Shown here: positions 73 through 59,450 of the stretch, in pieces | Layout of the letters: each line of letters starts with the position of its first letter | Position numbering within the stretch: position 1 is the stretch's first letter | Sequence record: FJ373894 | DNA: 64,000 nt | Source: Shigella phage Ag3 | Reading direction: 5' to 3' (one strand) | Program-made: the position numbers and the translations under genes | The notes under the pieces: generated by a model | What the model was told of the DNA's origin: nothing | Seen by the model: only the letters and a program-made list of their open reading frames with translations | Database searches by the model: none

Positions 73-450
73 ATGAAACAGTTCGTAGGATTATATGCGG
101 TCGGATGCAGTAAGCCAGACGCCATCCTCACCGCAGGGCAATTTGTCACAGGCACCCCAGTTTGTCTGACGCAGCTGGCGTCAGACAAGAACTTACCATC
201 GGAGCCGCGATTTGTCCCTCTGGGTTTGATGACAGGCCTGAAAGTTGGTCTGTATGTCGGTGTGGTGACGTTTGAAAACGGCGTCGAAGCGAAGGTTCTG
301 CCATTCAAATTGGGCAGCGAACAAATGCTGAAGGACACTATCAGTGAACACCTGAACGCACAATGTCTGGTTTCTCTGGACAAATTGTTCGGCGCAGTAT
401 CTGATGAAGGCGAGGCCACCCCCGCCTATGTGAATCAAGATCAGTCGTGA
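73..450 (+). CDS. hypothetical protein (125 aa)
   Basis: ORF track; balanced composition, whereas the overlapping minus ORF 15..419 is S/T/P/R-rich; weak RBS. Confidence 0.35.
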   Translation: MKQFVGLYAVGCSKPDAILTAGQFVTGTPVCLTQLASDKNLPSEPRFVPLGLMTGLKVGLYVGVVTFENGVEAKVLPFKLGSEQMLKDTISEHLNAQCLVSLDKLFGAVSDEGEATPAYVNQDQS

Positions 451-1949
451 TTACCCAGCGCCACCTTCATGAACTCCACAGGGTGGCGCTCTGTCAGGTA
501 GAACTTGTATCGCTCATGAGAGTGCCTGATAGCGTGGTTCGTGCTGGCGTTGTACGACACATCATCCACTAAGTCCCATATCCACGCGACGTCCTTGGAG
601 GAGTGCTGACGCATCAGACGACCCAATGTCTGTATGACGCGGATATATGACTTGCTCGGGTGCGCCAGTACAAGGTGGTGTAGCTTCTTGATTGACACAC
701 CCTGTTGCATTGTCCCGTATGAAGCCAACAACGTGATATCCTCTCCATCCTCCATCGCTTTCTGTATGCGGCGGCGGTCTTCGATCTTCACTTCCCCGTT
801 GATGACAAACACGTTGGGCTTGACTGCGCTCAGCATATCGTACACAACCATCATGTGGGCGTCAATACGCTCGAACATGATGGCCACGTTCCCTTTCAGA
901 TTCAGTGCCATCTTGGCGATCAGTTCGTTGCGGGACTGGTGTGTAATAAGGTATTCTATTTCCTTGGTATAATCCCCGTCCAGACCAACAGCATCCGCCG
1001 GAGTGTGCTTTAGCTGAATCATCTTCACTTTGATGTCAGTGGCGTACCCGAGATTGATAAGGTCGCGAGCCGTGATGATCTTATGGTACGCCCCGAAGTG
1101 AGCCACCACCTGAAGCCCGGCAACTTTGGTGTTCGACAGCGTACCTGTAACCCCCAGGCGCTGGTCGGCGTAGATGCAGTTGTTGAGGATATAGGACAGT
1201 TTCTCAGACTTGGAGGTATGCACTTCATCCACCACGATGTCACCGAACTGGTGGAACCATTCCTTCGGCTGGTCTTGAATGCCCTGCCATGTACTGATGA
1301 CGATTGGTTTGCTGATTTCCTTTGTCGCGCCCTCAAAGATCAACTGAGTGTTGGCAACGGGCTTCCAATCGCTGCCGTGTGCGTACTCTTCAAAGTTGTC
1401 GTACAGCTGAGTGACCAGGTGAATCGACGGCACCACGATAAGCGTCTTCAGAGGACTTTCGAGAGCTTCTCTGCGCTGCCTGTAGTACCGCGCCATGACA
1501 TACAGAATAAAGGACTTACCAGCACTCGTAGCCAGTTCACAGACGCATCTGGTTTGACGCATAGCCTTGGCGATGGTGTCGTACTGATAGTCGCGGGTCT
1601 CAGCATCGATGTATTCGTGATTTTCGGTGCGGATCTTTGGATGGAGACTGTCGATGAAGTCATGGATTTCTTGATCTGGGATGTCCTGAATGTACTTCAG
1701 AGCCGGATCCAGTTCAATGGTGTATTTGTTGTTCTTGCAGAACTTGAACACCTCAAACAGTAGGCCGATATCAATCAGACCGGATGACTTGGTGAACAAG
1801 CGAACAACCCCGTCCCATTTAGAGAAGGGGTTGGGAACGAAGTTCGGGTCTTCGAATTTGAAGTAGTCATTCAGCTCTTCCCTGATAGAAAGATCTGCGA
1901 TGCAACGCATGCGGACTTCGTTAACCTTAACAATCTGAATGTCTGCCAT
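441..1949 (-). CDS. SF2 DNA helicase (UvsW-like)
   Basis: ORF track 441..2063; internal ATG at 1949 preceded by GGGAG; GKS Walker-A-like and VVDEVH motif II. Confidence 0.7.
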   Translation of the reverse strand: MADIQIVKVNEVRMRCIADLSIREELNDYFKFEDPNFVPNPFSKWDGVVRLFTKSSGLIDIGLLFEVFKFCKNNKYTIELDPALKYIQDIPDQEIHDFIDSLHPKIRTENHEYIDAETRDYQYDTIAKAMRQTRCVCELATSAGKSFILYVMARYYRQRREALESPLKTLIVVPSIHLVTQLYDNFEEYAHGSDWKPVANTQLIFEGATKEISKPIVISTWQGIQDQPKEWFHQFGDIVVDEVHTSKSEKLSYILNNCIYADQRLGVTGTLSNTKVAGLQVVAHFGAYHKIITARDLINLGYATDIKVKMIQLKHTPADAVGLDGDYTKEIEYLITHQSRNELIAKMALNLKGNVAIMFERIDAHMMVVYDMLSAVKPNVFVINGEVKIEDRRRIQKAMEDGEDITLLASYGTMQQGVSIKKLHHLVLAHPSKSYIRVIQTLGRLMRQHSSKDVAWIWDLVDDVSYNASTNHAIRHSHERYKFYLTERHPVEFMKVALGNHD

Positions 1950-1966: not shown

Positions 1967-1981
1967 ATATGGGGTATTTAG
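1967..1981 (-). promoter_or_regulatory. late-promoter-like motif CTAAATACCCCATAT
   Basis: Minus-strand motif about 20 nt upstream of helicase ATG. Confidence 0.35.
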
Positions 1982-4400: not shown

Positions 4401-5129
4401 TTACTTCAGCGCGCTCTTCAGATTATCAGAACCGATGTTGTTGATAACGCCACCAGCACACAGGTCTTTAGCCCACTCAGACAGTACATTGGCGAACGAG
4501 AAGTTCAGACACTTGCTGACCATGTCTTGGATGTGGGCTAACTCTGAGGCAATACCATTGGCGATATCCTGACCGATTTGCGCCACCTGAGCAATAGCAT
4601 CGTTGATGTATCCGGTAACTTCGGCGGCCAGCGCCTGGATCTTTGCCAGGCCAGCGCTCACACCCTGCGCAACTAACTCAGCCAGTTCGGCCATCTTGGC
4701 AGTAACAGTGCTGAGAGCGCCCTCCATAGCCCCGATCCACTGGCGCCCAAGAGTCTGTATGACGCCGAAGGCATTGTTGATCAGATCACAGTTGGTCGGC
4801 TCGCGCTCGATTGACTTCAGGCCAGATTTGTACGACACGGAAGTCCCGATGCGGGAATACGCTTCGTTCACAGTCTGATCACCATAGTTGTTCAGTGTGG
4901 TGAGGCTGGTGTCGGCAGAGGTGAACATCGTGTTCGTTTCATTGAGTTTGGCTGTGGTTAGACCACCTGCCGTCAGAGCGCCCTGGATTTGCGTATTTCC
5001 GGTGTTTGCCAGTGCAGCTGTAGTCGCCTTGCCGCTGGTGATTAAACCCTGAGACGTGCTGCTGAGGGACGGGAGAGGATTGTTAAATGCGTTACCCTGC
5101 TCAAGGGCGTCATAGATCTGTGCGTTCAT
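4401..5129 (-). CDS. hypothetical protein, possible virion protein
   Basis: ORF track 4401..5144; two in-frame ATGs (5144, 5129); CTAAATA motif and hairpin just upstream. Confidence 0.5.
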   Translation of the reverse strand: MNAQIYDALEQGNAFNNPLPSLSSTSQGLITSGKATTAALANTGNTQIQGALTAGGLTTAKLNETNTMFTSADTSLTTLNNYGDQTVNEAYSRIGTSVSYKSGLKSIEREPTNCDLINNAFGVIQTLGRQWIGAMEGALSTVTAKMAELAELVAQGVSAGLAKIQALAAEVTGYINDAIAQVAQIGQDIANGIASELAHIQDMVSKCLNFSFANVLSEWAKDLCAGGVINNIGSDNLKSALK

Positions 5130-5130
5130 A

Positions 5131-5163
5131 GAAAATACCCCCATGGATGATGGGGGTATTTAG
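5131..5163 (-). promoter_or_regulatory. CTAAATACCCCC motif within an inverted repeat upstream of 4401..5129
   Basis: Arms AAATACCCCC / GGGGGTATTT around ATGGATGAT loop. Confidence 0.4.
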
Positions 5164-5167
5164 GTGA

Positions 5168-5335
5168 TCATGGCAGTTTGTAAACGAAGTTGGACCAGAA
5201 CTTCCGAGCGAACTTCTTGGCATAGACCTTCCAGTCGGCGTATTCGCCCTCCTTCAGGTCGTTGTAGGTCTCGAACCCTACTGCTCCCAGGAAGTACGCC
5301 GTGAAGATATAGCAGAACAGATTGACGACAAACAT
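5168..5335 (-). CDS. small hydrophobic protein (55 aa)
   Basis: Manually translated MFVVNLFCYIFTAYFLGAVGF...; GGAG RBS; below ORF-track length cutoff. Confidence 0.35.
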   Translation of the reverse strand: MFVVNLFCYIFTAYFLGAVGFETYNDLKEGEYADWKVYAKKFARKFWSNFVYKLP

Positions 5336-5376
5336 GATGTATCTCCGCTGTGTGAACTCAAATTATTTATGGTATG

Positions 5377-5799
5377 TTACAAAAGGCGCTTGGTCTTCGG
5401 CTTGCCCATCAGTGTGATGTCCACAGGGAGGCCAGCTTTCTTGCAACGGTTGATCATGTCCAGGGTGCCAGTGGACGAACCATCCCACATCGCAATCGGA
5501 TACACTTCCAGCTTGGTCTGCCTGACGAGATCCAATGCCTTGTCTAACATGTCCTGATTGCGTTTGTTGCCCATCCCTTTCCCATACTTTTCATAATAGC
5601 TCGGAGGGATTGGCATAGGAGTGATATGAACATAATTGATTTCAGCCCAATCACGGCAAATCGTGTCGACACCCGTGGCCTCACCCTCGATCAACGTATA
5701 GACTTCATGAGGATCGAGGAGTTCGTCCAGCTTGGCGAATACCTTATCCCGCTCGGTGATTGAGCGGGAACCTGTAACGAGTACGATATATTTCTTCAT
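5377..5799 (-). CDS. SLOG-fold protein (DprA/LOG-like, DUF2493-type)
   Basis: Internal start MKKYIVLVTGSRS; motifs VLVTGSR and EGEATGVDTICRDWA. Confidence 0.5.
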   Translation of the reverse strand: MKKYIVLVTGSRSITERDKVFAKLDELLDPHEVYTLIEGEATGVDTICRDWAEINYVHITPMPIPPSYYEKYGKGMGNKRNQDMLDKALDLVRQTKLEVYPIAMWDGSSTGTLDMINRCKKAGLPVDITLMGKPKTKRLL

Positions 5800-5804
5800 G
5801 GAAC

Positions 5805-6125
5805 TCACAGCGCCCCAAGATTGCCGATGACATACAGGGAGCACAGAGGAGTGCCTGACGAACGGGGTTCGATTGTCATCCCGCTCAGGCGGATCAGTTC
5901 CAGTAAGCCGTCAGTGGTTTGATACGCGCGTGTCGAACCGTTCGGGCGATAAAGCTCCAGCTCGGTTCTTCCTTCCTTTAATGCATTACGGATACGAGCG
6001 AACACACTGTGGTCGCCGAACTTCTGTTTCAGAAGGTCCAGCTTGGTGACCAGTCGACGACGCGATTTGCGCGCACGAGGGTTCTCTTTTACGACCGCTT
6101 CTAAAATTGGGATGCTGTTAGCCAT
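5805..6125 (-). CDS. hypothetical protein (106 aa)
   Basis: ORF track. Confidence 0.45.
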   Translation of the reverse strand: MANSIPILEAVVKENPRARKSRRRLVTKLDLLKQKFGDHSVFARIRNALKEGRTELELYRPNGSTRAYQTTDGLLELIRLSGMTIEPRSSGTPLCSLYVIGNLGAL

Positions 6126-6184
6126 GATAAAGTCCTCTATTTGTAGGGGATAGGGTATGCGGTTAACATACCCCGTTCAAAGGT

Positions 6185-19993: not shown

Positions 19994-20644
19994 TTATTCT
20001 CCAAAGTCGATCTTCATCTTGTCTACTGCAAGCCCCTTCTCAAGCACATCCGCCAAAGCATTGTCGGTCTGCAGAGAAGAATCCTTGTACACGTCCGGTT
20101 CGTTCTCTTCGTCCAAGATGGACAGACGTTTGTCGATATCGTCGATCTCCGGAACGCCTGTATCGAAGTTTTCGTTGCCGTACTGGAACAACGTGCACGG
20201 CAGAGAGAACGTATACCATTTGCCAAATTGCATGAAGTCTTCATCGTTGTTTGGGTTGTTGACCTTGAAGATCTTGTTCGCCAGGGGCAGGTAGATCAGG
20301 TCACCTTCCTGAGGTTGTTGTTCAATCCCAACACCGTTGCCTATCACCTCAGCAAAGCGGCGGCGCGAGATAGAGAACGTCACCTCATCCTGTAGATTAA
20401 TACCCCCGAACTTCTCCCACATCTGGGTGTTGAAGCCCTGGTAATCCTGCATGTAAACTTCGATGTCGAACGCTTGGTCGAATCGATGGTTTGCATCGTT
20501 GGTGACTGGGAATTTTTCAACGATGGAACGTGGTATATACTTGACGTCTATCCCACGCAACTGAATCATTTCTTGCACCAAATCTTCAATCAGCTTCTGT
20601 GTGCCTTGGTGATTGGTGGCGTTGAAATATTTTGAAGTGGCCAT
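19994..20644 (-). CDS. neck protein (gp14-like)
   Basis: Synteny; GAGGG RBS; CTAAATACC motif upstream. Confidence 0.45.
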   Translation of the reverse strand: MATSKYFNATNHQGTQKLIEDLVQEMIQLRGIDVKYIPRSIVEKFPVTNDANHRFDQAFDIEVYMQDYQGFNTQMWEKFGGINLQDEVTFSISRRRFAEVIGNGVGIEQQPQEGDLIYLPLANKIFKVNNPNNDEDFMQFGKWYTFSLPCTLFQYGNENFDTGVPEIDDIDKRLSILDEENEPDVYKDSSLQTDNALADVLEKGLAVDKMKIDFGE

Positions 20645-20663
20645 ATCGATACCCTCAATTTTG

Positions 20664-20674
20664 AAGGTATTTAG
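20664..20674 (-). promoter_or_regulatory. late-promoter-like CTAAATACCTT upstream of gp14-like gene
   Basis: About 20 nt upstream of ATG 20644. Confidence 0.4.
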
Positions 20675-27145: not shown

Positions 27146-27175
27146 TTTGATGCTCCATCGATAGGTGCCATTATA

Positions 27176-27191
27176 GAGATATTTAGTATAC
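27176..27191 (-). promoter_or_regulatory. late-promoter-like ACTAAATATCTC upstream of giant structural gene
   Basis: About 35 nt upstream of ATG 27145. Confidence 0.3.
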
Positions 27192-27203
27192 AGCCAACCG
27201 AGG

Positions 27204-29229: not shown

Positions 29230-31506
29230 TTAGTTCTGAATCAACACGGCATTGTACGATAGTGGAAAATCACCAGAAGTTCCTGAACGGGTAAACTGGT
29301 AGTTAGACCCAGAAACACCAGCAGCGACAGACGCCAACTGACTCGCTGAAGTGGCTGTCACCGCAATGCTACGGCCAGATACCAGGCTAACTATACCGAC
29401 AGCGGCAGTAACGGACCCAACGCCATTCGGGATAGTAACTAACCCGACTTGCTTGTCCGGGTGTGTCGGGGAGTCATAATGGTAGAACTTACACGAAGCT
29501 CCACCCACAAAAACCTGCCCGTAAAAGTAACAATTTTTTGTTGTTACGCTAGAGCCACCAGTTTGGTTATCTAAAACAGTAATTCCCAGTGGCTTATTTG
29601 CCAGGAATGTACAATTTTCCGCAGTTACTCCAACTACAGAGTTCACTAAAAGGTCTCCCTGCTGTGCTGCATCAATGTCATTGTTCTGGAAAAGGCAATT
29701 CACAAGCTTTGGTCTTGCCGGTACTAGGCCACCTTCTTTAATAATCTCAAGACCAAAGTAACGGCTGTCAGAGAATTTAACACCTGTAGCCATAAACTCA
29801 TTACAAGAACCCTGAATTACCACACAAGATTTATTACCGCTGCGGTTGCTGCTGTAATACCCGTTTGTTAATTGTAAATACTGAGTATTAGTCGCTCTCA
29901 GTGCAATACCGGTGGCAAGGTCTGACATGACGTCAGTCAGCCATATCCACCGGCAGTTAACTATCTCTATAGCTGCGGTGCCTAAAGTGTTATCACCACA
30001 GGCGTAGAATCTATCGCCTAGCAGCTCAATACCCTCTATGTTCGTGCTCACATGAGAGCTGTTTTCGGTTATGAACAGCCCGCATTTACACCCATTGAAT
30101 GTATTCTGGTTAAATCGAGTGTTAATCTGTCCCCCACCAAGTACAACACCGTATGTACTGGCAGCGAATCTGTTGAACCTGAAATCAAGCTCTCCAGCCC
30201 CATAACCGCCGGGTGCATCTACGCAATATTTAAGGAAGGCAAAAGAACAATTTTCAACTGTAACCAAAGGCGCTTCGATTCGTATACCAGTTGATGTGGA
30301 TTCTACGGTAACTGACTGAATCGTAAAGTCCGCAAGTCTTGCAAATTCATGAGTAACCTTGAAACATGTATCTCCGTCATTTTCAGGGCAGAATGTCGTG
30401 TTGAGCTTGCCCGCTCCGATAAGATTGGCGGGGCTATCAATAACAATATCTTTTACGAAATATTTCTCCGTTGCCGCCGGGACAAATACTGTATTAGACG
30501 CTGTAGAGGCGAGCTTAGCTGCGGCCAATGCGGCATTGATGGCCTGTGACCATGTATTAGACCCAGTTTTATAGTCGGCGGCATTGAAATAGACGGCATG
30601 GCGGGCGTTAATTATAGCCTGCTCTACAGTAACACCAGAAGAAGTCCCGACTAACGTAGCCCCGGAGCTTGCCGCTAAATCGTTTCTTAAATTTGGGTCC
30701 GTTTGTGGAGTCCAGTCGGCAACAGCAACAGGGTTGGTACTTGCTGCGATTACATGCGGCAATGCACCACTCCAGGAATACCAGGTCTTACTTACCGGGT
30801 CATATACCACTTTGTCACGGTCATTAATTGTTAAAGTGCCGCCTACGCTAAAAGTTAAACCAGAGTCAGCGTAGCCATTTTCAATAGCCCAGTTGAGTTT
30901 TAACTTGATCAAATCATCACCAACAGAGTCTAAACTCTGTTGCACCGTTTGCCCCGACGTAGTTCCAACAAGGCTTGCCCCATTATCAGAAGCCAACGCC
31001 AGGTAATTTTGTTTTACGGACATTTCTGACACGACCCAAACTCCAGCCGCAGGCGAACCTGTGAGGAAACTCACAACTCCTGTTGTGCTGTTGTAGCTGT
31101 AGTTGACACCAGGAACCTGGAACTTCCCGTCAACATACAGAGACTGTACGCCGTAGGTTGTGAAGTCTGGCGTGAAAGTAGTCTCGTTACCGTCCGCCTG
31201 AAACTTGTAGATTCTGATCCCGTTTTCATAATCTTCTGGGGACAGGATCTTGTCAAACAGACAGTACACTACATCATCAGCCTCTAGTGCTCGACCGAGG
31301 TTGACTGTGTTGCCATCGATTTCATAGTTGTCGACAGGAACCTGAACACCACCATTGATAGTGATGAAGCCCGTAACGGGATAGAACGGGAGGGAGATAA
31401 ACGTCTCTCCACCCGTTGCGGTATAAGTGTATGGAATCTGGTGTGGTGCTGTTACAACCGCTCCAAAGATGCTCTCGACGTTTCTGGTCATTTGAAGATA
31501 CCCCAT
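29230..31506 (-). CDS. tailspike protein B (758 aa)
   Basis: Beta-helix-like repeats (NCSFAF, NCTFLANK); alternative start 31491. Confidence 0.65.
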   Translation of the reverse strand: MGYLQMTRNVESIFGAVVTAPHQIPYTYTATGGETFISLPFYPVTGFITINGGVQVPVDNYEIDGNTVNLGRALEADDVVYCLFDKILSPEDYENGIRIYKFQADGNETTFTPDFTTYGVQSLYVDGKFQVPGVNYSYNSTTGVVSFLTGSPAAGVWVVSEMSVKQNYLALASDNGASLVGTTSGQTVQQSLDSVGDDLIKLKLNWAIENGYADSGLTFSVGGTLTINDRDKVVYDPVSKTWYSWSGALPHVIAASTNPVAVADWTPQTDPNLRNDLAASSGATLVGTSSGVTVEQAIINARHAVYFNAADYKTGSNTWSQAINAALAAAKLASTASNTVFVPAATEKYFVKDIVIDSPANLIGAGKLNTTFCPENDGDTCFKVTHEFARLADFTIQSVTVESTSTGIRIEAPLVTVENCSFAFLKYCVDAPGGYGAGELDFRFNRFAASTYGVVLGGGQINTRFNQNTFNGCKCGLFITENSSHVSTNIEGIELLGDRFYACGDNTLGTAAIEIVNCRWIWLTDVMSDLATGIALRATNTQYLQLTNGYYSSNRSGNKSCVVIQGSCNEFMATGVKFSDSRYFGLEIIKEGGLVPARPKLVNCLFQNNDIDAAQQGDLLVNSVVGVTAENCTFLANKPLGITVLDNQTGGSSVTTKNCYFYGQVFVGGASCKFYHYDSPTHPDKQVGLVTIPNGVGSVTAAVGIVSLVSGRSIAVTATSASQLASVAAGVSGSNYQFTRSGTSGDFPLSYNAVLIQN

Positions 31507-31519
31507 AGAGGATTTGCCA

Positions 31520-31534
31520 ATATGGGGTATTTAG
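31520..31534 (-). promoter_or_regulatory. late-promoter-like CTAAATACCCCATAT upstream of tailspike B
   Basis: Identical 15-mer to 1967..1981. Confidence 0.4.
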
Positions 31535-33759: not shown

Positions 33760-36700
33760 TTAGAAGTTGCGAGACATCTCGAACCATATACCAGCTCGGC
33801 GCTGGAGAGTCATGATAGCCAAGCCACCGGAAGCCGTGGCGTTCACCCCACCTTTGAGGCGCATCACAGTACTATTGTGAGTGAGGACAACCCCATCACC
33901 CATACGCAGGTTGATAATATCACCCGATTGTGCACCAGTGAAGTCGGTGATGGTTCCTGAAGCGATATACAGATTCGGACCAAACACCGCAGATGGGGTG
34001 CCACCCGACACCGTCACTTCACCTTTCGGATCATCAAGAGCAGTGACGTCTCTTATCACGTTGAAAGCGCCGCGCCCACGGCTAAGATAATACTTGCTGG
34101 TAGTAGCCCCGCGAGCAGCAATGTTGGTCAGGGAACCATCAGTCATCAGGGTTCCGGCGTCGTATGCATAAACAACATGCGGACGAGACGTGACCGAGTT
34201 AATGACTTCGTCATGGATGTTGACGTTGTACATTGCTTTGTTATTGGTGGCGGCCAGATAGATAGCGCAAGATCCCGCTCCATACGCGTTACCGCCGATA
34301 TTGATGTTGCCTGTGTCGCCAGCGATAGGAGTGGTGTTCGGGTTACGGGAACTACTGTAGATCGCCAGAGGATAGTCTGCGGTCAACACCCAATCAGATT
34401 CCACGGCGATGCTCGCCAAGGAACCAGCAAACAAGCCGTTGGCATTGACAGACACGTTGGTGACGCCAGCGCCCATGTAAACGCTGTATTTCCAGTCGCC
34501 GAGGATTGTATTCCCACTGACGGTACATTGGTCAACGCCCTTGTAAAGCTGGATCGCTGCGTCATCTGATGGAGATACAGCCGCTGTCGAAGTCTGGATA
34601 TGGTTACCAGAGATATTGATCCAACGACACCCCCAAGCGACGTTGACGCCAGAACTACCACCATCAATCAGAAGGTTGCCAACGACATTTACTCGCTGGC
34701 AGTTTGGACTGAGGTTGATGTTTCGGTGGGTGTTCCCTATGATGTGGTTCTTCGTAATCAGTGTGCGGAACAGACCCAGCCCCTGAACACCATGGGTGCC
34801 CCCAGAAATGAAGTTTCCTTCAATGATGGTATCGCGCAACGTGATCGTAGACGGGAACAACGGAACCCCAGCATTGGTGTCTAGGCCACCATACAGAGAT
34901 GTGATCTGCCCGATCATCCCGATGCCACAAATCGCATAGTTGCCTGTGCCCGCCCAAGGATCGGTTGGCATCTCAATGACGTTTTCGCTGATTTTGTTGT
35001 TGATGTTCATGGAAGTCGTGCTGGTCGTACCGATACGGATACCGTATGCCTCGCCAGTCCCATCCAGACCATAAACATAGTTCTTTTCAATAGTCGCACG
35101 GATAACGCCGGAAACGATGATACCCTTCCTGGTGTTGTTGTTGCCATTTAGGATACAGTTTCTGATTTGTAAATCGGTGTGCCCAGTATCAACAAAGGAG
35201 TAGAGCAGTGTGTCTGTGTTGGCAACGATACACTTCAGCTTCAGACCATCGATAACTTTGACACCAACTGTCACCAGAACACGGCCTACACCATAAACCT
35301 TTTCTGTACCGCGGACGATAACTCCTGGATGGCTCGCGGCATAATCAACAGCACCCTGAACAGCCAGAGTGAAATCTGTGTTTTCATCGACGTACTCACC
35401 AGCCGTAACCAGATGAGAGAATTGCTCTGGCGTGACATAGTATTGCATTTCGGCCAAAGTGCCCTGGGGTGTTACAACGACAGCGTTTGCACCCACCAGA
35501 CCTGTATTCCCGGCCAGCAACTCGCCTTTGTACGCTTCAAGGGCGTCTTTACTGCCAGGGGCTGGTAAGAGTGGCACCACAACGTTGCCAGGAGCGTAGG
35601 ACAAGTTGCTTCCGCTCACAGATACGATGGACGCGCCTGTTGGGATACCAGAAGGCAGACCCCAGATCTTCTGTGCAACGACATCATAGATAACCGTCTT
35701 TCCGTCCAGTTTGGTGATGGTATCGGACGACAAAATAACCTGAGAATTCGGTACGTTCACGGAACGTGCCACTTCGTTTGGTGTACGGTCGATCTGATTG
35801 TACAGGGTTGGGTCACCATTGATGACGACAACAACTTCATCACCAGCTTCGAGTTCGTCGGCCAGCGTGATGATCTTCGTAACGGAGTCATAAGTGAAGC
35901 CCAGGCCTTTCTGCTGGCGGGATCCATCGATAAAGATCTCAGAAACATCTTCGGCATCGACATCCAACTCGATCTCAGTTTCACCACCCACAGCTGATCC
36001 GCTATTGTATATCCAAGTGATAACCGTACCGCCGCCGGAACCACCGGAGCCATCGCCCAACTGGATCGGGACATATTGGATGACCTGCAGCTCGGAACCT
36101 GATGGGATTGATGGACTGAAGTCGACATTGAAACCATTGAGGGAATACTTTGACTCCAGCAGGCGCTTCCCGTCAACATACACATCAACAATGGACGGCT
36201 GTGTGGTGAGAGTTACCTGAGCTGTATCTGATGCAACTGTCTCAGTGAAGATGGTACGACTGTAAACGCGCCCCTGGCCAAGACCGACGCCAGCAGTCAC
36301 AATCCAACCACGCGCGTCTCCAGACCAGGTAAAGGTCGCAGACACGCTATCGGTGGAGAGAGTCATAGGCTCTACAGAGCCGTACATTGGGTGACCATTT
36401 GGGTCAATGGTCAGAGGATACAGGGAGAACTTTCCATACAAGTCACAGACTGTAACAGAATCGCCAATGCGCGTAGGGGAAGGGAACACCACCGTAGAGA
36501 CGCCTGTGGAGTTGTCTACCAGATAGCCTCGCCCTTCAGTGAGCGTTGCCGTAGAGGCATGCGGAAGGGCTTCCCAGCGGATACCACCGCCACCCAGCGG
36601 CAACCATCCACCATTTTCGTAGAAGCCCTCAAATTCGTCGGAGTCGGCATTGTAGCGAACAGAAGACGGGAGGCCTGCGCTGGCATTACCCTCGGGTAAA

Positions 36701-36819
36701 GTCAGGACAGCATCTGGTCCATGCTCAATCGTACCCGTGTTGAGGATACCAGCCAAAGTAGACTGTTCTTCAGCCACCAGACCGAGAGGGAAAACAGGCT
36801 GTGTTGGTTTATTAGCCAT
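33760..36819 (-). CDS. tailspike protein D (about 1019 aa, TSP4-like)
   Basis: ORF track 33760..36849; ATG at 36819 with GGGG RBS; long N-terminal domain plus C-terminal repeats. Confidence 0.7.
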   Translation of the reverse strand: MANKPTQPVFPLGLVAEEQSTLAGILNTGTIEHGPDAVLTLPEGNASAGLPSSVRYNADSDEFEGFYENGGWLPLGGGGIRWEALPHASTATLTEGRGYLVDNSTGVSTVVFPSPTRIGDSVTVCDLYGKFSLYPLTIDPNGHPMYGSVEPMTLSTDSVSATFTWSGDARGWIVTAGVGLGQGRVYSRTIFTETVASDTAQVTLTTQPSIVDVYVDGKRLLESKYSLNGFNVDFSPSIPSGSELQVIQYVPIQLGDGSGGSGGGTVITWIYNSGSAVGGETEIELDVDAEDVSEIFIDGSRQQKGLGFTYDSVTKIITLADELEAGDEVVVVINGDPTLYNQIDRTPNEVARSVNVPNSQVILSSDTITKLDGKTVIYDVVAQKIWGLPSGIPTGASIVSVSGSNLSYAPGNVVVPLLPAPGSKDALEAYKGELLAGNTGLVGANAVVVTPQGTLAEMQYYVTPEQFSHLVTAGEYVDENTDFTLAVQGAVDYAASHPGVIVRGTEKVYGVGRVLVTVGVKVIDGLKLKCIVANTDTLLYSFVDTGHTDLQIRNCILNGNNNTRKGIIVSGVIRATIEKNYVYGLDGTGEAYGIRIGTTSTTSMNINNKISENVIEMPTDPWAGTGNYAICGIGMIGQITSLYGGLDTNAGVPLFPSTITLRDTIIEGNFISGGTHGVQGLGLFRTLITKNHIIGNTHRNINLSPNCQRVNVVGNLLIDGGSSGVNVAWGCRWINISGNHIQTSTAAVSPSDDAAIQLYKGVDQCTVSGNTILGDWKYSVYMGAGVTNVSVNANGLFAGSLASIAVESDWVLTADYPLAIYSSSRNPNTTPIAGDTGNINIGGNAYGAGSCAIYLAATNNKAMYNVNIHDEVINSVTSRPHVVYAYDAGTLMTDGSLTNIAARGATTSKYYLSRGRGAFNVIRDVTALDDPKGEVTVSGGTPSAVFGPNLYIASGTITDFTGAQSGDIINLRMGDGVVLTHNSTVMRLKGGVNATASGGLAIMTLQRRAGIWFEMSRNF

Positions 36820-36822
36820 TTC

Positions 36823-36863
36823 AAATACCCCTAAATGTGTTCGTTTCATCTAGGGGTATTTAG
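36823..36863 (-). promoter_or_regulatory. CTAAATACCCCTAG motif plus inverted repeat upstream of tailspike D
   Basis: Arms AAATACCCCTA / TAGGGGTATTT; downstream arm supplies GGGG RBS. Confidence 0.4.
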
Positions 36864-40740: not shown

Positions 40741-40752
40741 GATATTTAGTGG
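40741..40752 (-). promoter_or_regulatory. late-promoter-like CACTAAATATC upstream of baseplate gene
   Basis: About 35 nt upstream of ATG 40702. Confidence 0.35.
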
Positions 40753-43946: not shown

Positions 43947-43956
43947 AGCACCTAAA
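43947..43956 (+). promoter_or_regulatory. late-promoter-like CTAAATAAAC upstream of small ORF
   Basis: About 35 nt upstream of ATG 43989. Confidence 0.3.
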
Positions 43957-43988
43957 TAAACCAGTTGTTCAATAAACAACTGGTGAGT

Positions 43989-44189
43989 ATGATGAAAACG
44001 TTCGGTGATTTTATTGCTGAGTGGGATGGCCTCGCCACCGACAACAAAGAGATTGTCGAGTTTGTTGAAAAGCGAGGTGACAAGTGGGTTGTCCTTGACC
44101 ACACCAAGACGAAGGTTCTTGGTACACATGACACCAAAGCTGACGCTGATGCCCAATTAAGGGCGATTGAAGCGAACAAGCACGGATAA
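43989..44189 (+). CDS. small hypothetical protein (66 aa)
   Basis: ORF track 43965..44189; ATG at 43989 after GGTGAG; CTAAATAA motif upstream. Confidence 0.4.
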   Translation: MMKTFGDFIAEWDGLATDNKEIVEFVEKRGDKWVVLDHTKTKVLGTHDTKADADAQLRAIEANKHG

Positions 44190-44190
44190 A

Positions 44191-44266
44191 GACGATGTAG
44201 TTCAGTCGGTAGAACGGCGGTCTGTTAAACCGTATGTCGCAGGTTCAAGTCCTGCCATCGTCGCCA
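44191..44266 (+). tRNA. tRNA-Asn (anticodon GUU)
   Basis: Cloverleaf by hand: acceptor GACGATG/CATCGTC, loop CTGTTAA, T-arm GCAGGTTCAAGTCCTGC, encoded CCA. Confidence 0.85.
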
Positions 44267-44523
44267 GACAATGGGTGTGAACGAAAGTGAATAGGCACGA
44301 AGTACGCGACCGACAAGCTCCAAGCCTCTGTCCAATAGCCGAACGGAATCTGAAGACGACGATAGTAACGCCCACCAAATTCAGAGTGTAGAGGCTACAG
44401 TAGTGCGCACCTCACGGGTTGCTACACCGGACACTCTGATACAAATCTGCCGCTGCGTGGATTAGCTGAGGAAGGATGGCCGATGTCCTCGAGCGTGGCC
44501 CAGCACGCAGCGGTAGACCAAAT

Positions 44524-44607
44524 GTGAGTGTGGCAGAGCGGTCGAATGCAGGAGACTGTAAATCTCCCCGTAACAGCGCGGTGGTTCGAATCCATCCACT
44601 CACACCA
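44524..44607 (+). tRNA. tRNA-Tyr (anticodon GUA)
   Basis: Acceptor GTGAGTG/CACTCAC, anticodon arm GGAGACTGTAAATCTCC, long variable arm, T-arm GGTGGTTCGAATCCATC, CCA. Confidence 0.85.
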
Positions 44608-44829
44608 AACACAGTAAGCGTTGCAGCCAGCTGTGTATAAAATGGGGTGACTCCACATCGGAAACGATGCCCCAACTTCCAGAAATGGTCGGGCGCAAAG
44701 CCTGTAAAGTTCCAGGAGATCGAACCAGAAGGCACTGGTCGCCAGTTAACCAATCGGCGCTGAGAAGCGCGGGGAGTTGGGCTACGGCAGATCAAATGCT
44801 CAATCGGGTGTGAATCCCGTTCAAATTTC

Positions 44830-44913
44830 GCGGGAGCCATAGGGGTTGGACAGTAGCCGACTGATCATCGGCGACGATCACTGGACAGGTTCGAATCCTG
44901 ATCTCCCGCTCCA
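44830..44913 (+). tRNA. tRNA-like gene, possibly Ile (GAU) or pseudo-tRNA
   Basis: Acceptor GCGGGAG/CTCCCGC, anticodon stem GCCGA/TCGGC with loop CTGATCA, T-loop TTCGAAT; extra base and 12-nt variable region. Confidence 0.35.
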
Positions 44914-44917
44914 AATT

Positions 44918-45006
44918 GGAAGGTTGCCCGAGAGGTTTAAGGGACTCGACTGCTAATCGAGTGGGGCTTTTAGCCCCCGAAGGTTCGAATCCTTCACCTT
45001 CCGCCA
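44918..45006 (+). tRNA. tRNA-Ser (anticodon GCU)
   Basis: Acceptor GGAAGGT/ACCTTCC, D-stem CCC/GGG, loop CTGCTAA, variable arm GGGGC/GCCCC, T-arm GAAGGTTCGAATCCTTC, CCA. Confidence 0.85.
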
Positions 45007-46872: not shown

Positions 46873-48129
46873 ATGAACAAATTCGCTGCACAACCCCTCG
46901 CTCCATATATTCCGTTTCACACGTTAGGGAAAGGTCCATACAAAACGATTTTTGATGTCCTCTCTCTTCATCGTGAACATATTCACTGGGAAGACTACCT
47001 CTACAAACACACTCCGTGTGAACTCGTCGCCAACCCCGAAACTAACCAGCAGGTCTGGTTCAAGCGTGAAGATTACTTCGCGCCGCTATCTTGTTATATG
47101 AATGGCAAGCAGGGCATCAACGGCAGCAAACTCCGTCAGGCCATCTGGCTCATGGTTGAGCACCTGAAGGCCGGAGGCTCCCCTGACATCATCCACGGCA
47201 CTGTCGTTGGTAGTCCGCAGTCCCCTATGGCGACGGCAGTCTCTCGGCACTTCGGCGGCAAGACAACCACTGTACTCGGCGCGACCAAACCCACCACTTG
47301 TATGAACCATGATATGGTGGAAATGAGTGCCTGGTTCGGTAGTGAGTTCAACTTCGTCGGCTCCGGCTACAACAGCACCATCCAACCTCGCTGTAAGAAG
47401 CTCATCGAGCAGGTGAATCCAAAGGCGTACTACCTGGAATATGGTATTACCCTGGACCACACAGTGCATTCCCCCGAGCGCATCGCAGGATTCCATATGC
47501 TGGGCGGCGAGCAGGTTGCTAACATCCCTGACCATATCACCGATCTGATCATCCCTGCTGGATCATGCAACTCATGCACAAGCATCCTGACCGGGCTGGC
47601 GATGCACCCTAAGCCTAATCTGAAGCGTGTTTATCTGATTGGGATTGGACCAAACCGCCTGGACTTCATTGAGAGCCGCCTGCGCATCATCGGCAAACAG
47701 GCCAATCTGCCTCACATTGTCGACTTCACCCGTCGTTATCACGACAACCCAGACTATGTCCACGGCAAGAAGGAGCTTCAGCATGCCTCTAAGAGCGTTT
47801 CGCTGGCTGTCCTCCTAAGTGGTATCAGGCAGAAGGGAGAGCCAGAGGTCGTGCTTCCTCGTTTTGAGGTACACCATTGGGATCTTCACACCACCAATTG
47901 GGTTCGTTACAATGACCTGATGGATTATCAGTGGGGTGATATTGAGTTGCACCCTCGCTATGAAGGCAAGGTCATGACCTGGATCCAGCAGAACAAGCCC
48001 GAGTTGCTCAATGAGAACACTCTGTTCTGGATTGTGGGTAGCAAGCCGTACATCGAGCCAATGAAGGCCGCATGCCCTGAGCTGGCTATCCCAGATGAAG
48101 TGAACGTCAACACCTTCACTCCTTCCTGA
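46873..48129 (+). CDS. PLP-dependent enzyme, fold type II (ACC deaminase/D-cysteine desulfhydrase-like)
   Basis: FKREDYF...NGSKLRQA resembles KRDD...GGNKLRK lysine motif; 418 aa. Confidence 0.6.
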   Translation: MNKFAAQPLAPYIPFHTLGKGPYKTIFDVLSLHREHIHWEDYLYKHTPCELVANPETNQQVWFKREDYFAPLSCYMNGKQGINGSKLRQAIWLMVEHLKAGGSPDIIHGTVVGSPQSPMATAVSRHFGGKTTTVLGATKPTTCMNHDMVEMSAWFGSEFNFVGSGYNSTIQPRCKKLIEQVNPKAYYLEYGITLDHTVHSPERIAGFHMLGGEQVANIPDHITDLIIPAGSCNSCTSILTGLAMHPKPNLKRVYLIGIGPNRLDFIESRLRIIGKQANLPHIVDFTRRYHDNPDYVHGKKELQHASKSVSLAVLLSGIRQKGEPEVVLPRFEVHHWDLHTTNWVRYNDLMDYQWGDIELHPRYEGKVMTWIQQNKPELLNENTLFWIVGSKPYIEPMKAACPELAIPDEVNVNTFTPS

Positions 48130-48135
48130 TCCCTT

Positions 48136-48149
48136 CTAAATACCCCATA
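48136..48149 (+). promoter_or_regulatory. late-promoter-like CTAAATACCCCATA (copy 1)
   Basis: Followed by GGGGTATCTATG. Confidence 0.35.
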
Positions 48150-48235
48150 CAACCCGTGTGGGGTATCTATGAAACCTTTCTTGAATATTTCCGTGATATC
48201 GTCCTGTGCAAACCCGGCCTGGCAGTGCGGGAAGC

Positions 48236-48250
48236 CTAAATACCCCATAT
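48236..48250 (+). promoter_or_regulatory. late-promoter-like CTAAATACCCCATAT (copy 2)
   Basis: 25 nt upstream of ATG 48275 with GAGGAA RBS. Confidence 0.4.
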
Positions 48251-48274
48251 GGCTAACCCACTGAGGAACCCAAC

Positions 48275-48733
48275 ATGCCAACCTCCAAATTGTTTGAATC
48301 AGAATACACCAATGACATCCCCGTATGGACTGGTGTTCAAGACGGTATCACGATTGAGCTGTTTGATCGTGAAGAGACGGGCGCGGAAGAGATCTATGCA
48401 GGCGTTGAAGGCACTGATGTTGTCCGCGCCGCCGTAGCCCTTGCCACCTTCCTGGAAGATGCGCCGATTGATGGTGTGCCGTTCGAGGCGCACGTAGATC
48501 CCGAGGATCCAACGTCTATTATCATCACGGTGAATGGAGTGCCATACACTTCGTACAGCATCGAGACGGACGAAGAGGGCAGCGGAGCGCTGTATATTGC
48601 CACTGACCTGCAGCTGGAAGACGATGAGATGGATTATCTGATTCAGAATGGGGTACTGCCACCGTTCACAGATGAAGACCTGGACACAGAACTGGCCGCC
48701 GTCGGTGACGATGACGACTTCTGGGAAGAATAA
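48275..48733 (+). CDS. highly acidic protein (152 aa)
   Basis: GAGGAA RBS; about 30 percent Asp/Glu; two CTAAATACCCCAT motifs upstream. Confidence 0.6.
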   Translation: MPTSKLFESEYTNDIPVWTGVQDGITIELFDREETGAEEIYAGVEGTDVVRAAVALATFLEDAPIDGVPFEAHVDPEDPTSIIITVNGVPYTSYSIETDEEGSGALYIATDLQLEDDEMDYLIQNGVLPPFTDEDLDTELAAVGDDDDFWEE

Positions 48734-59180: not shown

Positions 59181-59216
59181 TATAAATATCCTCGCCTATA
59201 AAGTGAGGATATTATC

Positions 59217-59384
59217 ATGTTACAAGATCTGTTGGTCTACGCACTTCCGGGTGTGGTTGTTGGATTCATCGCAGGTGCTCTGGTCTTCCGCAAACACGCG
59301 CAAGACGGTGAAGTGATTGTTCAGAAGGGTAAAGACATCCTGGAACAAATCGAAGCCAAACTGGACGAGCTGAAGAAAAAGTAA
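59217..59384 (+). CDS. small membrane protein (55 aa)
   Basis: Manually found; GTGAGGA RBS; MLQDLLVYALPGVVVGFIAGALVF. Confidence 0.4.
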   Translation: MLQDLLVYALPGVVVGFIAGALVFRKHAQDGEVIVQKGKDILEQIEAKLDELKKK

Positions 59385-59400
59385 TCTGATTGCGATTGCG

Positions 59401-59412
59401 TTCTTCAATAAA
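59401..59412 (+). promoter_or_regulatory. conserved TTCTTCAATAAA motif
   Basis: Also at 62321..62332; reverse orientation at 6527..6538 and 50183..50194. Confidence 0.35.
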
Positions 59413-59450
59413 GGGGAATGGGTTAATATTAGCCCGTTCCCCTTTCTTTT
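59413..59450 (+). terminator. rho-independent terminator
   Basis: GGGGAATGGG...CCCGTTCCCC 10-bp stem then TTTCTTTTT. Confidence 0.65.

What the first reader, a model, noticed from the sequence alone, without database searches (positions are those of the whole stretch)
5131..5161. Inverted repeats pairing the promoter-like motif with the downstream ribosome-binding region
At 5131..5161, 31507..31534 and 36823..36861 the AAATACCCC element is complemented by a GGGGTATTT element that overlaps the RBS and start codon of the next gene. The resulting 9-11 bp hairpin would sequester the Shine-Dalgarno sequence in read-through transcripts but be absent from transcripts initiated at the motif. That could couple translation to promoter choice.
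Basis: inference. Interest (0 to 1): 0.45.

Follow-up and report, generated by a model that had tools for sequence, protein, structure and literature searches.

The report
Late-promoter hairpins masking ribosome-binding sites

Summary
The window comes from a ViI-like (Ackermannviridae) phage, and the genes at all three sites are on the minus strand. Read in that direction, each site runs CTAAATACCCC, a loop, GGGGTAT(T/C)T, then 6-8 nt and an ATG. The hairpins have 10-16 bp stems (-16 to -21 kcal/mol, z -4.4 to -8.2). I found three more in the window: 48136-48171(+), 20674-20642(-) and 59181-59219(+).

CTAAATAcCcc is already listed in the literature as a regulatory motif of this family. Its core matches the T4 late promoter TATAAATA, and some relatives carry TATAAATACCCCC at the orthologous position.

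The arms are kept in relatives whose downstream protein is only 63% identical, while loops and spacers change. Stem changes are G-C to G.U or A-U to G.U. Each 5' arm pairs best with its own 3' arm.

Folding leaves the Shine-Dalgarno (SD) sequence fully paired in read-through RNA. It is about 35-55% open in RNA that starts 5-7 nt after TAAATA.

In Vi01 the same module precedes the endolysin and the Holliday-junction resolvase genes, the counterparts of T4 genes e and 49. The same scan recovers T4 e, 49 and soc.

Verdict: a new member of a known kind. No start sites have been mapped, and a leaky-terminator role is not excluded.

The parts
5153..5163 (-). Site A promoter motif CTAAATACCCC. It forms the 5' arm AAATACCCCCAT at 5161..5150.
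   Evidence: Orthologous positions in relatives read TTTAAATACCCCC, TTAAATACCCCC or TATAAATACCCCC.
5133..5144 (-). Site A 3' arm ATGGGGGTATTT, holding the SD GGGGGT (5142..5137). The loop is 5149..5145.
   Evidence: -17.2 kcal/mol, z -4.4. Invariant in 18 related loci while the loop and the SD-to-ATG spacer vary.
4401..5129 (-). Gene downstream of site A (242 aa; matches phrog_2114 and the C-terminal part of the phrog_289 'GTP-binding domain' profile). The true start is the ATG at 5129..5127.
   Evidence: The start is conserved as ATGAACGCACA in all relatives and equals the annotated Vi01_142c start.
5168..5335 (-). Conserved 55-aa ORF upstream of site A. Its TGA stop ends 4 nt before the promoter motif.
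   Evidence: The substitution pattern in relatives is that of coding sequence. It corresponds to Vi01_143c.
31524..31534 (-). Site B promoter motif CTAAATACCCC. The 5' arm ATACCCCATA is at 31530..31521.
31498..31507 (-). Site B 3' arm TATGGGGTAT, holding the SD GGGGT (31504..31500). The 13-nt loop is 31520..31508.
   Evidence: -16.3 kcal/mol, z -4.8. Conserved in 5 loci plus Vi01 even though the upstream DNA is unrelated.
29230..31491 (-). Tail spike gene downstream of site B (753 aa). Start ATG at 31491..31489.
   Evidence: phrog_13781, tail spike.
36853..36863 (-). Site C promoter motif CTAAATACCCC. The 5' arm AAATACCCCTAGATG is at 36861..36847.
36823..36837 (-). Site C 3' arm CATTTAGGGGTATTT, holding the SD GGGGT (36831..36827). 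The 9-nt loop is 36846..36838.
   Evidence: -21.0 kcal/mol, z -8.2. It has a G.U pair that is G-C in relatives L021, L022 and L026.
33760..36819 (-). Large tail spike / tail protein gene downstream of site C (1019 aa). Start ATG at 36819..36817.
   Evidence: Ortholog of Vi01_173c.
48136..48171 (+). Site E: CTAAATACCCCATACaacccGTGTGGGGTATctATG. The same module, now in front of a vestigial 31-codon ORF.
   Evidence: -17.2 kcal/mol. In Vi01 the same module drives the 149-aa gene Vi01_183. The vestigial state is shown.
20642..20674 (-). Site G: CTAAATACCTTCAaaatTGAGGGTATcgatATG, upstream of the neck / head-closure gene 19994..20644. It contains a U.G pair and has no U tract.
   Evidence: -10.2 kcal/mol, z -3.7. 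Conserved in Vi01 at 113404.
59181..59219 (+). Site H: TATAAATATCCTCGCctataaaGTGAGGATATTatcATG, upstream of a 55-aa ORF. The promoter is a perfect T4-type TATAAATA.
   Evidence: -14.9 kcal/mol, z -6.3. Conserved in Vi01 at 152314. ORF shown.
1971..1981 (-). Site D: a perfect CTAAATACCCC upstream of the helicase gene 441..1949, with only a weak, interrupted hairpin. It serves as a contrast site.
   Evidence: -7.5 kcal/mol, z -1.9.
48236..48246 (+). Site F: a perfect CTAAATACCCC upstream of gene 48275..48733, with no hairpin. It serves as a contrast site.
   Evidence: z -0.08.

Best explanation
Each site is one compact module. It holds a gp55-type late promoter, (C/T)TAAATA, followed by a pyrimidine-rich 'anti-SD' run (CCCC, CCTTC or TCCTC). 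Then come a loop, the SD of the next gene (GGGGT, GAGGGT or GAGGA) extended by TAT(TT) so that it is the reverse complement of the promoter arm, a 3-8 nt spacer, and the ATG.

RNA that enters from upstream carries both arms. It folds into a -10 to -21 kcal/mol hairpin that buries the SD, so ribosomes initiate poorly. Transcription also starts at the module itself. By analogy with T4 the start lies about 5-7 nt after TAAATA, inside or just past the 5' arm. That RNA lacks the 5' arm, the SD is free, and the gene is translated. Expression of the downstream gene is thus tied to firing of its own late promoter.

Shown by sequence analysis here: the repeats, their stability, their conservation, the position of the SD, and the accessibility contrast in folding.

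Inferred: that the motif is an active late promoter, the start-site position, the existence of read-through RNA, and the size of the translational effect.
For: (1) Identity of the phage. The window is about 97% identical to Shigella phage MK-13 and Salmonella phages SKML-39 and P46FS4. Relatives encode the T4-type late-transcription proteins gp55, gp33 and gp45 (Vi01 annotation; literature).

(2) The motif. CTAAATAcCcc is listed as a family regulatory motif in PMC7283392.
- All 6 perfect copies are in the sense orientation.
- 21 of 25 TAAATA hexamers are on the sense strand, and most lie 25-50 nt upstream of late-gene starts.
- Orthologous sites in other genera read TATAAATACCCCC, a perfect T4 late promoter.

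(3) The hairpins.
- Six sites have z-scores from -3.7 to -8.2.
- They are enriched against permuted hexamers, with p = 2e-4 in the window and 4e-8 in Vi01.

(4) Folding. The probability that the SD is unpaired is 0.00, 0.16, 0.00 and 0.00 in read-through RNA at sites A, B, C and E. It rises to 0.34-0.56 in RNA starting 5-7 nt after TAAATA. Sites D and F show no change.

(5) Conservation.
- The arms are kept in every ortholog variant, at -11 to -21 kcal/mol, while loops and spacers vary.
- Stem changes are G-C to G.U or A-U to G.U. These preserve pairing only in sense-strand RNA.
- Own-arm pairing averages -15.0 kcal/mol against -7.1 for swapped arms. The own arm is best in 10 of 11 modules, and 0 of 20000 permutations do as well.

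(6) Vi01 carries the module before the endolysin and the RuvC-like resolvase genes. These are the functional counterparts of T4 e and 49.

(7) Positive control. The same scan on 100 kb of T4 recovers e (TATAAATACCTTCTA..TAGGAGGTATTATG), 49 and soc. For T4 e, the review reports that the structure lowers lysozyme synthesis about 100-fold and that late transcripts lack the 5' strand (PMC3014915). By the same folding method the T4 e hairpin is -13.3 kcal/mol, no stronger than those in this window.

(8) Sites G and H, and largely B and E, have no U tract after the stem. SD masking is the feature all sites share. None is called terminator-like by the scan that does find the canonical terminators nearby.
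Against: No transcription start site, promoter assay or expression data for any Ackermannviridae phage turned up in the papers searched. The key step, that late RNA lacks the 5' arm, therefore rests on analogy with T4.

Sites B and C lie inside the late structural cluster. RNA reading into them would come from upstream late promoters such as the one at 40748, and it is unclear why such RNA should be kept untranslated.

Site A, and the Vi01 endolysin and resolvase sites, are followed by UAUUUUCU or UAUUUUUA. One ortholog was annotated as a rho-independent terminator in phage AG3 (Torf098).

Stem covariation within ortholog groups is weak, because the 5' arm is also constrained by its promoter function.

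Two perfect motif copies (D and F) have no hairpin, so the CCCC run is not explained by pairing alone.

In the predicted late RNAs the SD is only about 35-55% open.
Confidence: 0.62

Rival explanations
1. The hairpins are mainly leaky intrinsic terminators, or 3'-end stabilising hairpins, of the upstream transcription unit. They happen to overlap the next gene's late promoter and SD because the genome is compact. In this reading, expression is insulated by stopping upstream RNA polymerase rather than by masking the SD. This could also operate together with SD masking.
For: Every module begins 4-10 nt after the stop codon of the upstream gene.

The G-run of site A is followed by UAUUUUCU. The Vi01 endolysin and resolvase sites are followed by UAUUUUCUU and UAUUUUUA.

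The AG3 genome paper lists the endolysin-upstream hairpin as the rho-independent terminator Torf098.

Unrelated IMG/VR phages carry TATAAATACCCC-loop-GGGGTATTTTTTTATG, with a long U tract.
Against: Sites G and H have no U tract. Sites B, E and C have only 4 U among the 8 nt after the G-run.

Loops of 9-13 nt at C and B are poor for termination.

None of the six is called by the terminator scan, which does find canonical terminators in the window such as 27238-27215, 20938-20923 and 59410-59445. The scan scores the tail after the full stem, so it would miss a shorter sub-stem at site A.

The bases after the G-run follow the complement of AAATA (always TAT, never TTT). That points to selection for pairing with the promoter rather than for U-richness.

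A terminator has no need to contain the SD, yet all six 3' arms do.

The analogous T4 e hairpin lets early transcripts through.
Confidence: 0.22
2. Translational coupling. The hairpin keeps the downstream SD closed until a ribosome finishing the upstream ORF melts the base of the stem. Translation of the downstream gene would then depend on translation of the upstream gene, not on promoter choice.
For: The upstream stop codons lie only 4-10 nt before the 5' arm. A terminating ribosome could therefore reach the first few base pairs.
Against: The stop codon is always outside the stem. By my estimate a terminating ribosome would open at most about 0-4 of the 10-16 bp.

At site B the upstream gene ends about 157 nt away in the window, and the upstream DNA differs completely between relatives while the module is unchanged.

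Site E keeps its hairpin in front of a vestigial ORF.

This reading does not explain why the 5' arm is always the promoter motif.
Confidence: 0.06
3. The repeat acts at the DNA level, either as a palindromic binding site for a dimeric regulator of late promoters or as a cruciform that modulates promoter opening.
For: The repeats are perfect or near-perfect palindromes that overlap a promoter.
Against: The spacing between the half-sites ranges from 4 to 13 nt within the window and changes between orthologs. A dimer with fixed geometry would not tolerate that.

The imperfections are G.U pairs on the sense RNA, which would be mismatches in DNA.

The distal half always coincides with the SD at a fixed distance from the ATG.
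Confidence: 0.04

Closest known systems
T4 late-gene translation-initiation-region hairpins (genes e, soc, 49, and I-TevI in the td intron)
   Same: A gp55-type late promoter (TATAAATA) lies in the 5' strand of a hairpin whose 3' strand holds the SD and/or AUG. Upstream-initiated RNA is poorly translated, and late RNA lacks the 5' strand (PMC3014915).

The resemblance extends to the sequence. T4 e is TATAAATACCTTCTA...TAGGAGGTATTATG and T4 49 is AATAAATACCCTTATCT...AGGTAAGGGT. Window site G is CTAAATACCTTCA...TGAGGGTAT.

In Vi01 the module also precedes the endolysin and the resolvase genes.
   Different: The promoter core here is usually CTAAATA rather than TATAAATA.

The module is more frequent. 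About 9-10 of 58 TAAATA sites in Vi01 and 6 of 25 in this window carry it, against 3 clear cases in the first 100 kb of T4 (134 TAAATA sites).

It also sits inside the late structural cluster, in front of tail-spike and neck genes, not only at late genes embedded in early regions.

Nothing has been tested experimentally in this family.
The 'CTAAATAcCcc' regulatory motif of ViI-like phages (Ackermannviridae)
   Same: It is the same sequence. It is listed as one of two 'unique regulatory motifs' of these genomes (PMC7283392).
   Different: The papers I read list the motif and do not mention the inverted partner or the SD.

My analysis suggests the motif is a composite: a late-promoter core (C)TAAATA plus an anti-SD arm (ACCCC). 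Four of the six perfect copies in the window are hairpin arms.
RBS-sequestering hairpins of phage homing-endonuclease genes (mobE of Aeh1, I-TevII/III, segB)
   Same: An RNA hairpin hides the RBS of a gene that upstream promoters read into (PMC3014915).
   Different: The genes here are structural, lysis and recombination genes rather than mobile endonucleases. The 5' arm here is the promoter itself.
Rho-independent terminators with an upstream A tract and a downstream U tract
   Same: A G+C-rich stem flanked by AAATA and TATTT sits directly after a stop codon. One ortholog was annotated as a terminator.
   Different: The U tract is weak or absent at most sites, some loops are long, and the SD is always inside the stem. 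The terminator scan does not call any of them.

Membership tests
T4-type late-promoter / RBS-masking hairpin (e, soc, 49, I-TevI class) | The 5' strand of the hairpin contains a gp55-type late promoter element (TATAAATA or a close variant) in the sense orientation. | tested here: met
   (C/T)TAAATA lies in the 5' arm at all six sites. Site H, and the site A orthologs L009, L012, L013, L015 and L018, read TATAAATA. This is a sequence match only; promoter activity was not tested.
T4-type late-promoter / RBS-masking hairpin (e, soc, 49, I-TevI class) | The 3' strand of the hairpin contains the SD and/or the start codon of the downstream gene. | tested here: met
   GGGG(G)T, GAGGGT or GAGGA lies in the 3' arm, 3-8 nt from the end of the stem to a conserved ATG.
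T4-type late-promoter / RBS-masking hairpin (e, soc, 49, I-TevI class) | The structure is stable enough to block initiation, and the SD becomes accessible once the 5' strand is missing. | tested here: met
   Hairpin energies are -10.2 to -21.0 kcal/mol, against -13.3 for T4 e by the same method. The probability that the SD is unpaired rises from 0.00-0.16 to 0.34-0.56. This is computational only.
T4-type late-promoter / RBS-masking hairpin (e, soc, 49, I-TevI class) | Late transcripts start within or after the 5' strand. | not testable with these tools
   Inferred from the T4 late-promoter geometry and the mapped T4 e ends. No start-site data for Ackermannviridae were found.
T4-type late-promoter / RBS-masking hairpin (e, soc, 49, I-TevI class) | Upstream-initiated transcripts read through the site. 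| tested here: inconclusive
   Same-strand genes end 4-10 nt upstream at A, C and E, with no canonical terminator in between. At G a canonical terminator lies about 250 nt upstream. The timing class of the upstream RNA is unknown.
T4-type late-promoter / RBS-masking hairpin (e, soc, 49, I-TevI class) | The phage encodes the gp55 late sigma factor with gp33 and gp45. | tested here: met
   These genes are not inside this 64-kb window. They are annotated in Vi01 (Vi01_103c, 069c and 135c) and reported for AG3, CBA120 and SW16-7, which are relatives of the window.
Rho-independent (intrinsic) terminator | A G+C-rich stem with a short loop (3-8 nt). | tested here: inconclusive
   Met at A, E, G and H (loops of 4-7 nt). 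Not met at B (13 nt) or C (9 nt).
Rho-independent (intrinsic) terminator | A U-rich tract (at least 5 of 8) directly after the stem. | tested here: not met
   None of the six sites is returned by the terminator scan, which does find canonical terminators nearby. Counting from the G-run instead of from the full stem, only site A reaches 6 of 8; C, B, E and H reach 4 of 8 and G reaches 3 of 8.

The most novel reading that the evidence does not exclude
In Ackermannviridae the T4 device may have been generalised into a portable 'promoter-locked RBS' cassette. The ACCCC part of the published CTAAATAcCcc motif would be an anti-SD arm rather than a promoter element.

The cassette would precede about ten genes per genome, including three of the four tail-spike genes in Vi01. 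It would make translation of each gene depend on its own promoter even among late polycistronic RNAs. That would set the dosage of each tail spike independently and allow whole promoter-hairpin-gene units to be swapped between phages.
Probability: 0.25. Interest if true: 0.45.

Novelty: new member of a known kind. Interest (0 to 1): 0.3.

Why it matters
It gives a concrete, testable function to the conserved 'CTAAATAcCcc' motif of ViI-like phages. It also suggests that part of the motif is an anti-Shine-Dalgarno arm rather than promoter sequence.

It corrects annotation in two ways. First, hairpins of this type have been called terminators. Second, start codons have been placed on the ATG inside the stem.

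It matters for engineering. Ackermannviridae tail-spike genes are being swapped or added to change host range. Constructs that move a gene without its promoter arm, or that place it behind another promoter while keeping both arms, may be poorly translated.

Biologically it extends a classic T4 control device to a second family and to many more genes. It does not reveal a new principle.

Tried and rejected
Rejected explanations
- Chance: ruled out by shuffles, permuted-hexamer controls and arm swapping.
- Plus-strand reading: after GGGGTATTT at 5153-5161 the plus strand reads AGGTGATCATG, which looks like an RBS and start codon. That ORF is only 44 codons long and is antisense to a conserved 55-aa minus-strand ORF whose substitution pattern in relatives is that of coding sequence.
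- Known RNA family: Rfam at gathering thresholds finds only three tRNAs in the window.
- Pure terminator and DNA-operator readings: judged less likely (see the rival explanations).

Searches that found nothing
- Literature on start-site or transcriptome data for Ackermannviridae: no usable result.
- The 2024 family review does not mention promoters or hairpins.
- The tail-spike papers do not mention the intergenic modules.

Other points
I used it only for illustration.
- An extra GGGGTAT at 6174(-) turned out to be an unrelated small hairpin that does not involve the SD.
- One search was an empty script.

Full report
**What the window is**

An 8-kb stretch around the first site is 97-98% identical to Shigella phage MK-13 and Salmonella phages P46FS4 and SKML-39, and it matches about 290 ViI-like (Ackermannviridae) phage records in all. 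From position 1 to about 45,000 the long ORFs are on the minus strand. From about 45,500 onward they are on the plus strand.

PHROG searches identify the genes that follow the three reported sites:
- 4401..5129(-) is a conserved protein of unknown function. It also matches the C-terminal part of a 'GTP-binding domain' profile.
- 29230..31491(-) is a tail spike.
- 33760..36819(-) is the large tail-spike / tail protein.

**Checking the observation**

AAATACCCC occurs 8 times against 0.28 expected. The 11-mer CTAAATACCCC occurs 6 times, always in the local direction of transcription: minus strand at 1981, 5163, 31534 and 36863, and plus strand at 48136 and 48236.

Read on the transcribed minus strand, the three sites are:
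- A: CTAAATACCCCCAT-catcc-ATGGGGGTATTT-tct-ATG
- B: CTAAATACCCCATA-ttggcaaatcctc-TATGGGGTAT-cttcaa-ATG
- C: CTAAATACCCCTAGATG-aaacgaaca-CATTTAGGGGTATTT-gaa-ATG

The repeat finder reports A as 12 nt at 100% complementarity and C as 15 nt at 93%. Folded as RNA, the hairpins are -17.2, -16.3 and -21.0 kcal/mol, with z-scores of -4.4, -4.8 and -8.2. None of 200 shuffles folds as well.

The stems are 10-16 bp rather than 9-11 bp. The start codon lies just outside the stem, and the SD (GGGG(G)T) is inside it.

**More sites of the same design**

A scan of every TAAATA in the window found three further modules:
- E at 48136-48171(+): CTAAATACCCCATAC-aaccc-GTGTGGGGTAT-ct-ATG, -17.2 kcal/mol.
- G at 20674-20642(-): CTAAATACCTTCA-aaat-TGAGGGTAT-cgat-ATG, -10.2 kcal/mol, upstream of a neck / head-closure gene.
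- H at 59181-59219(+): TATAAATATCCTCGC-ctataaa-GTGAGGATATT-atc-ATG, -14.9 kcal/mol.

Two perfect motif copies have a weak hairpin or none: D at 1981 and F at 48236.

Stems of at least 8 bp that begin inside the hexamer and end just before an ORF start are found at 6 of 25 TAAATA sites. The figure is 7 of 270 for the 14 permuted hexamers (p = 2e-4). In Vi01 the counts are 9 of 58 against 16 of 1656 (p = 4e-8).

**What the motif is**

One genome paper lists 'CTAAATAcCcc' as one of two 'unique regulatory motifs' of these phages (PMC7283392). Its core matches the T4 late promoter TATAAATA.

Several lines of sequence evidence fit a late promoter:
- In the window, 21 of 25 TAAATA hexamers are on the sense strand. 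Most are preceded by C and lie 25-50 nt before the starts of structural genes.
- At the ortholog of site A, other genera read TTTAAATACCCCC, TTAAATACCCCC or TATAAATACCCCC.
- Site H is itself TATAAATA.
- Relatives encode the T4-type late sigma gp55, gp33 and the gp45 clamp (Vi01_103c, 069c and 135c; literature).

This is good circumstantial evidence. Promoter activity has not been shown, and I found no start-site or transcriptome data for the family.

**Conservation**

Site A was recovered in 18 IMG/VR genomes whose downstream protein is 63-99% identical. The arms AAATACCCC(C)/GGGGGTATTT are essentially unchanged (one locus carries four Cs instead of five). The loop changes (CATCATCCAT, ATCAATT, AAAATT), and the SD-to-ATG spacer varies from 5 to 9 nt.

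Sites B, C and E behave the same way. At B the module is retained even though the DNA upstream of it is unrelated between phages.

Every ortholog variant still folds, at -11 to -21 kcal/mol.

The few stem differences are G-C to G.U (site C) or A-U to G.U (site E). Sites C and G contain G.U pairs. These preserve pairing only in RNA of the sense strand, which argues against a DNA-level palindrome.

Each site extends the stem with its own sequence beyond the shared AAATACC/GGTATTT core, so the arms co-vary between sites. Own-arm folding averages -15.0 kcal/mol against -7.1 for swapped arms. The own arm is best in 10 of 11 modules, and 0 of 20,000 permutations do as well.

**Folding with alternative 5' ends**

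With 80 nt of upstream RNA, the SD window is unpaired with probability 0.00 (A), 0.16 (B), 0.00 (C) and 0.00 (E). In RNAs that begin 5-7 nt after TAAATA, the probability is 0.34-0.56. Sites D and F show no such difference.

**Comparison with T4, tested rather than recalled**

The review by Uzan and Miller (PMC3014915) covers four T4 genes: e, soc, 49 and I-TevI. It makes three statements:
- Their SD and/or AUG is sequestered in a helix.
- For e, the longer early transcripts form the structure, and lysozyme synthesis falls about 100-fold.
- Transcripts from the late promoters immediately upstream lack the 5' portion and are well translated.

I fetched the first 100 kb of T4 and ran the same scan. 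It recovered three known cases:
- e: TATAAATACCTTCTA-taaatact-TAGGAGGTATT-ATG
- 49: AATAAATACCCTTATCT-attta-AGGTAAGGGT
- soc

T4 e and 49 use nearly the same arm sequences as the window's sites.

In Vi01 the scan found the module upstream of nine genes:
- the endolysin Vi01_086c: TTTAAATACCTCTGCA-atcac-TGCGGAGGTATTT-tctt-ATG
- the RuvC-like Holliday-junction resolvase Vi01_072c
- three tail-spike genes
- the neck gene
- the site A gene
- Vi01_183
- Vi01_200

The endolysin and the resolvase are the functional counterparts of T4 e and 49.

**The main rival: terminators**

Every module starts a few nucleotides after an upstream stop codon. At site A, and at the Vi01 endolysin and resolvase sites, the G-run is followed by UAUUUUCU or UAUUUUUA. 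The AG3 genome paper lists the endolysin-upstream hairpin as the rho-independent terminator Torf098. Unrelated IMG/VR phages carry TATAAATACCCC-loop-GGGGTATTTTTTT-ATG, which looks like a terminator, a promoter and an RBS in one.

Several points count against a purely terminator role:
- G and H have no U tract.
- B, C, E and H reach only 4 U in 8.
- B and C have loops of 13 and 9 nt.
- The bases after the G-run always follow the complement of AAATA (TAT...).
- All 3' arms contain the SD.
- The terminator scan finds the canonical terminators of the window but none of these six sites. It scores the tail after the full stem, so it would miss a shorter sub-stem at A.

I consider partial termination at A, and perhaps at C, plausible and compatible with SD masking.

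**Caveat on the regulatory logic**

In T4 the device protects late genes that sit in early regions. Here, B and C lie inside the late tail-spike cluster. RNA reading into them would come from upstream late promoters such as CTAAATA at 40748. The hairpin would then tie translation to the gene's own promoter rather than separating early from late expression. The purpose of that is unknown; dosage control or insulation of tail-spike cassettes is speculation.

**Verdict**

I found no description of it for Ackermannviridae in the papers I could search. I therefore class it as a new member of a known kind, of modest interest.

The start sites, the promoter activity and the translational effect remain to be shown.

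Noticed in passing
window 48136-48265 (+): Site E is a relic. A complete promoter-hairpin-SD-ATG module precedes a 31-codon ORF, which is what remains of a gene that is intact in Vi01 (Vi01_183, 149 aa). In relative L033 the mini-ORF is in frame with the C-terminal remnant of the displaced upstream gene. In the window it is frameshifted by one A.
   Followed up: partly
window 4401-5844 (-): The 500-position PHROG profile phrog_289 ('GTP-binding domain') is covered by two separate ORFs: 5377..5844 (profile positions 7-146) and 4401..5129 (259-500). A conserved hydrophobic 55-aa ORF (5168..5335) and the site A module lie between them. Vi01 has the same split (144c/143c/142c).
   Followed up: partly
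whole window; Vi01 (L041-L044): TAAATA is strongly strand-biased: 21 of 25 copies are on the sense strand. In Vi01 it is under-represented (58 copies against 80-160 for hexamers of the same composition), as expected for a signal that is avoided elsewhere.
   Followed up: partly
window 27170-27197 (-): CTAAATATCTC at 27186..27176 overlaps a sigma-70-like promoter (TTGGCT, 16 nt, TATAAT). The AG3 paper lists this promoter as the early promoter Porf206. A late and an early-type promoter may be superimposed upstream of the 1658-aa gene.
   Followed up: no
window 43952-43990 (+), next to the tRNAs at 44191-45003 (+): A CTAAATA motif followed by a 10-bp hairpin (ACCAGTTGTT/AACAACTGGT) sits on the plus strand upstream of a cluster of three tRNA genes, inside a region that is otherwise minus-strand. 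It is conserved in Vi01 at 137388.
   Followed up: no
Vi01 45650 (L041); window ORFs 4401..5144 and 29230..31506: Start codons are easily placed on the ATG inside the 3' arm (ATGGGGGTA...). The Vi01_072c annotation and the mechanical ORF list both do this. Relatives show that the downstream ATG is the conserved start.
   Followed up: yes
IMG/VR loci L050, L053, L094, L096, L103 and others: Modules of the form TATAAATACCCC-loop-GGGGTATTTTTTT-ATG occur in unrelated viral contigs. Examples precede a ~267-aa protein starting MAEP/MAQP and a ~115-aa protein starting MRPQ. L094 is a T-even-type gene e (TAAATACCCCTATATAAGGGGGTATTATGAATATATTCGAA). The design appears widespread among phages with TATAAATA-type promoter motifs; I did not identify these contigs.
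   Followed up: no
window 46873-48129 (+): The gene for a 418-aa protein of unknown function (phrog_3650) is present only in some relatives (window, L033, L036). Its presence goes with loss of the C-terminal end of the neighbouring gene, which suggests an insertion or replacement event.
   Followed up: no
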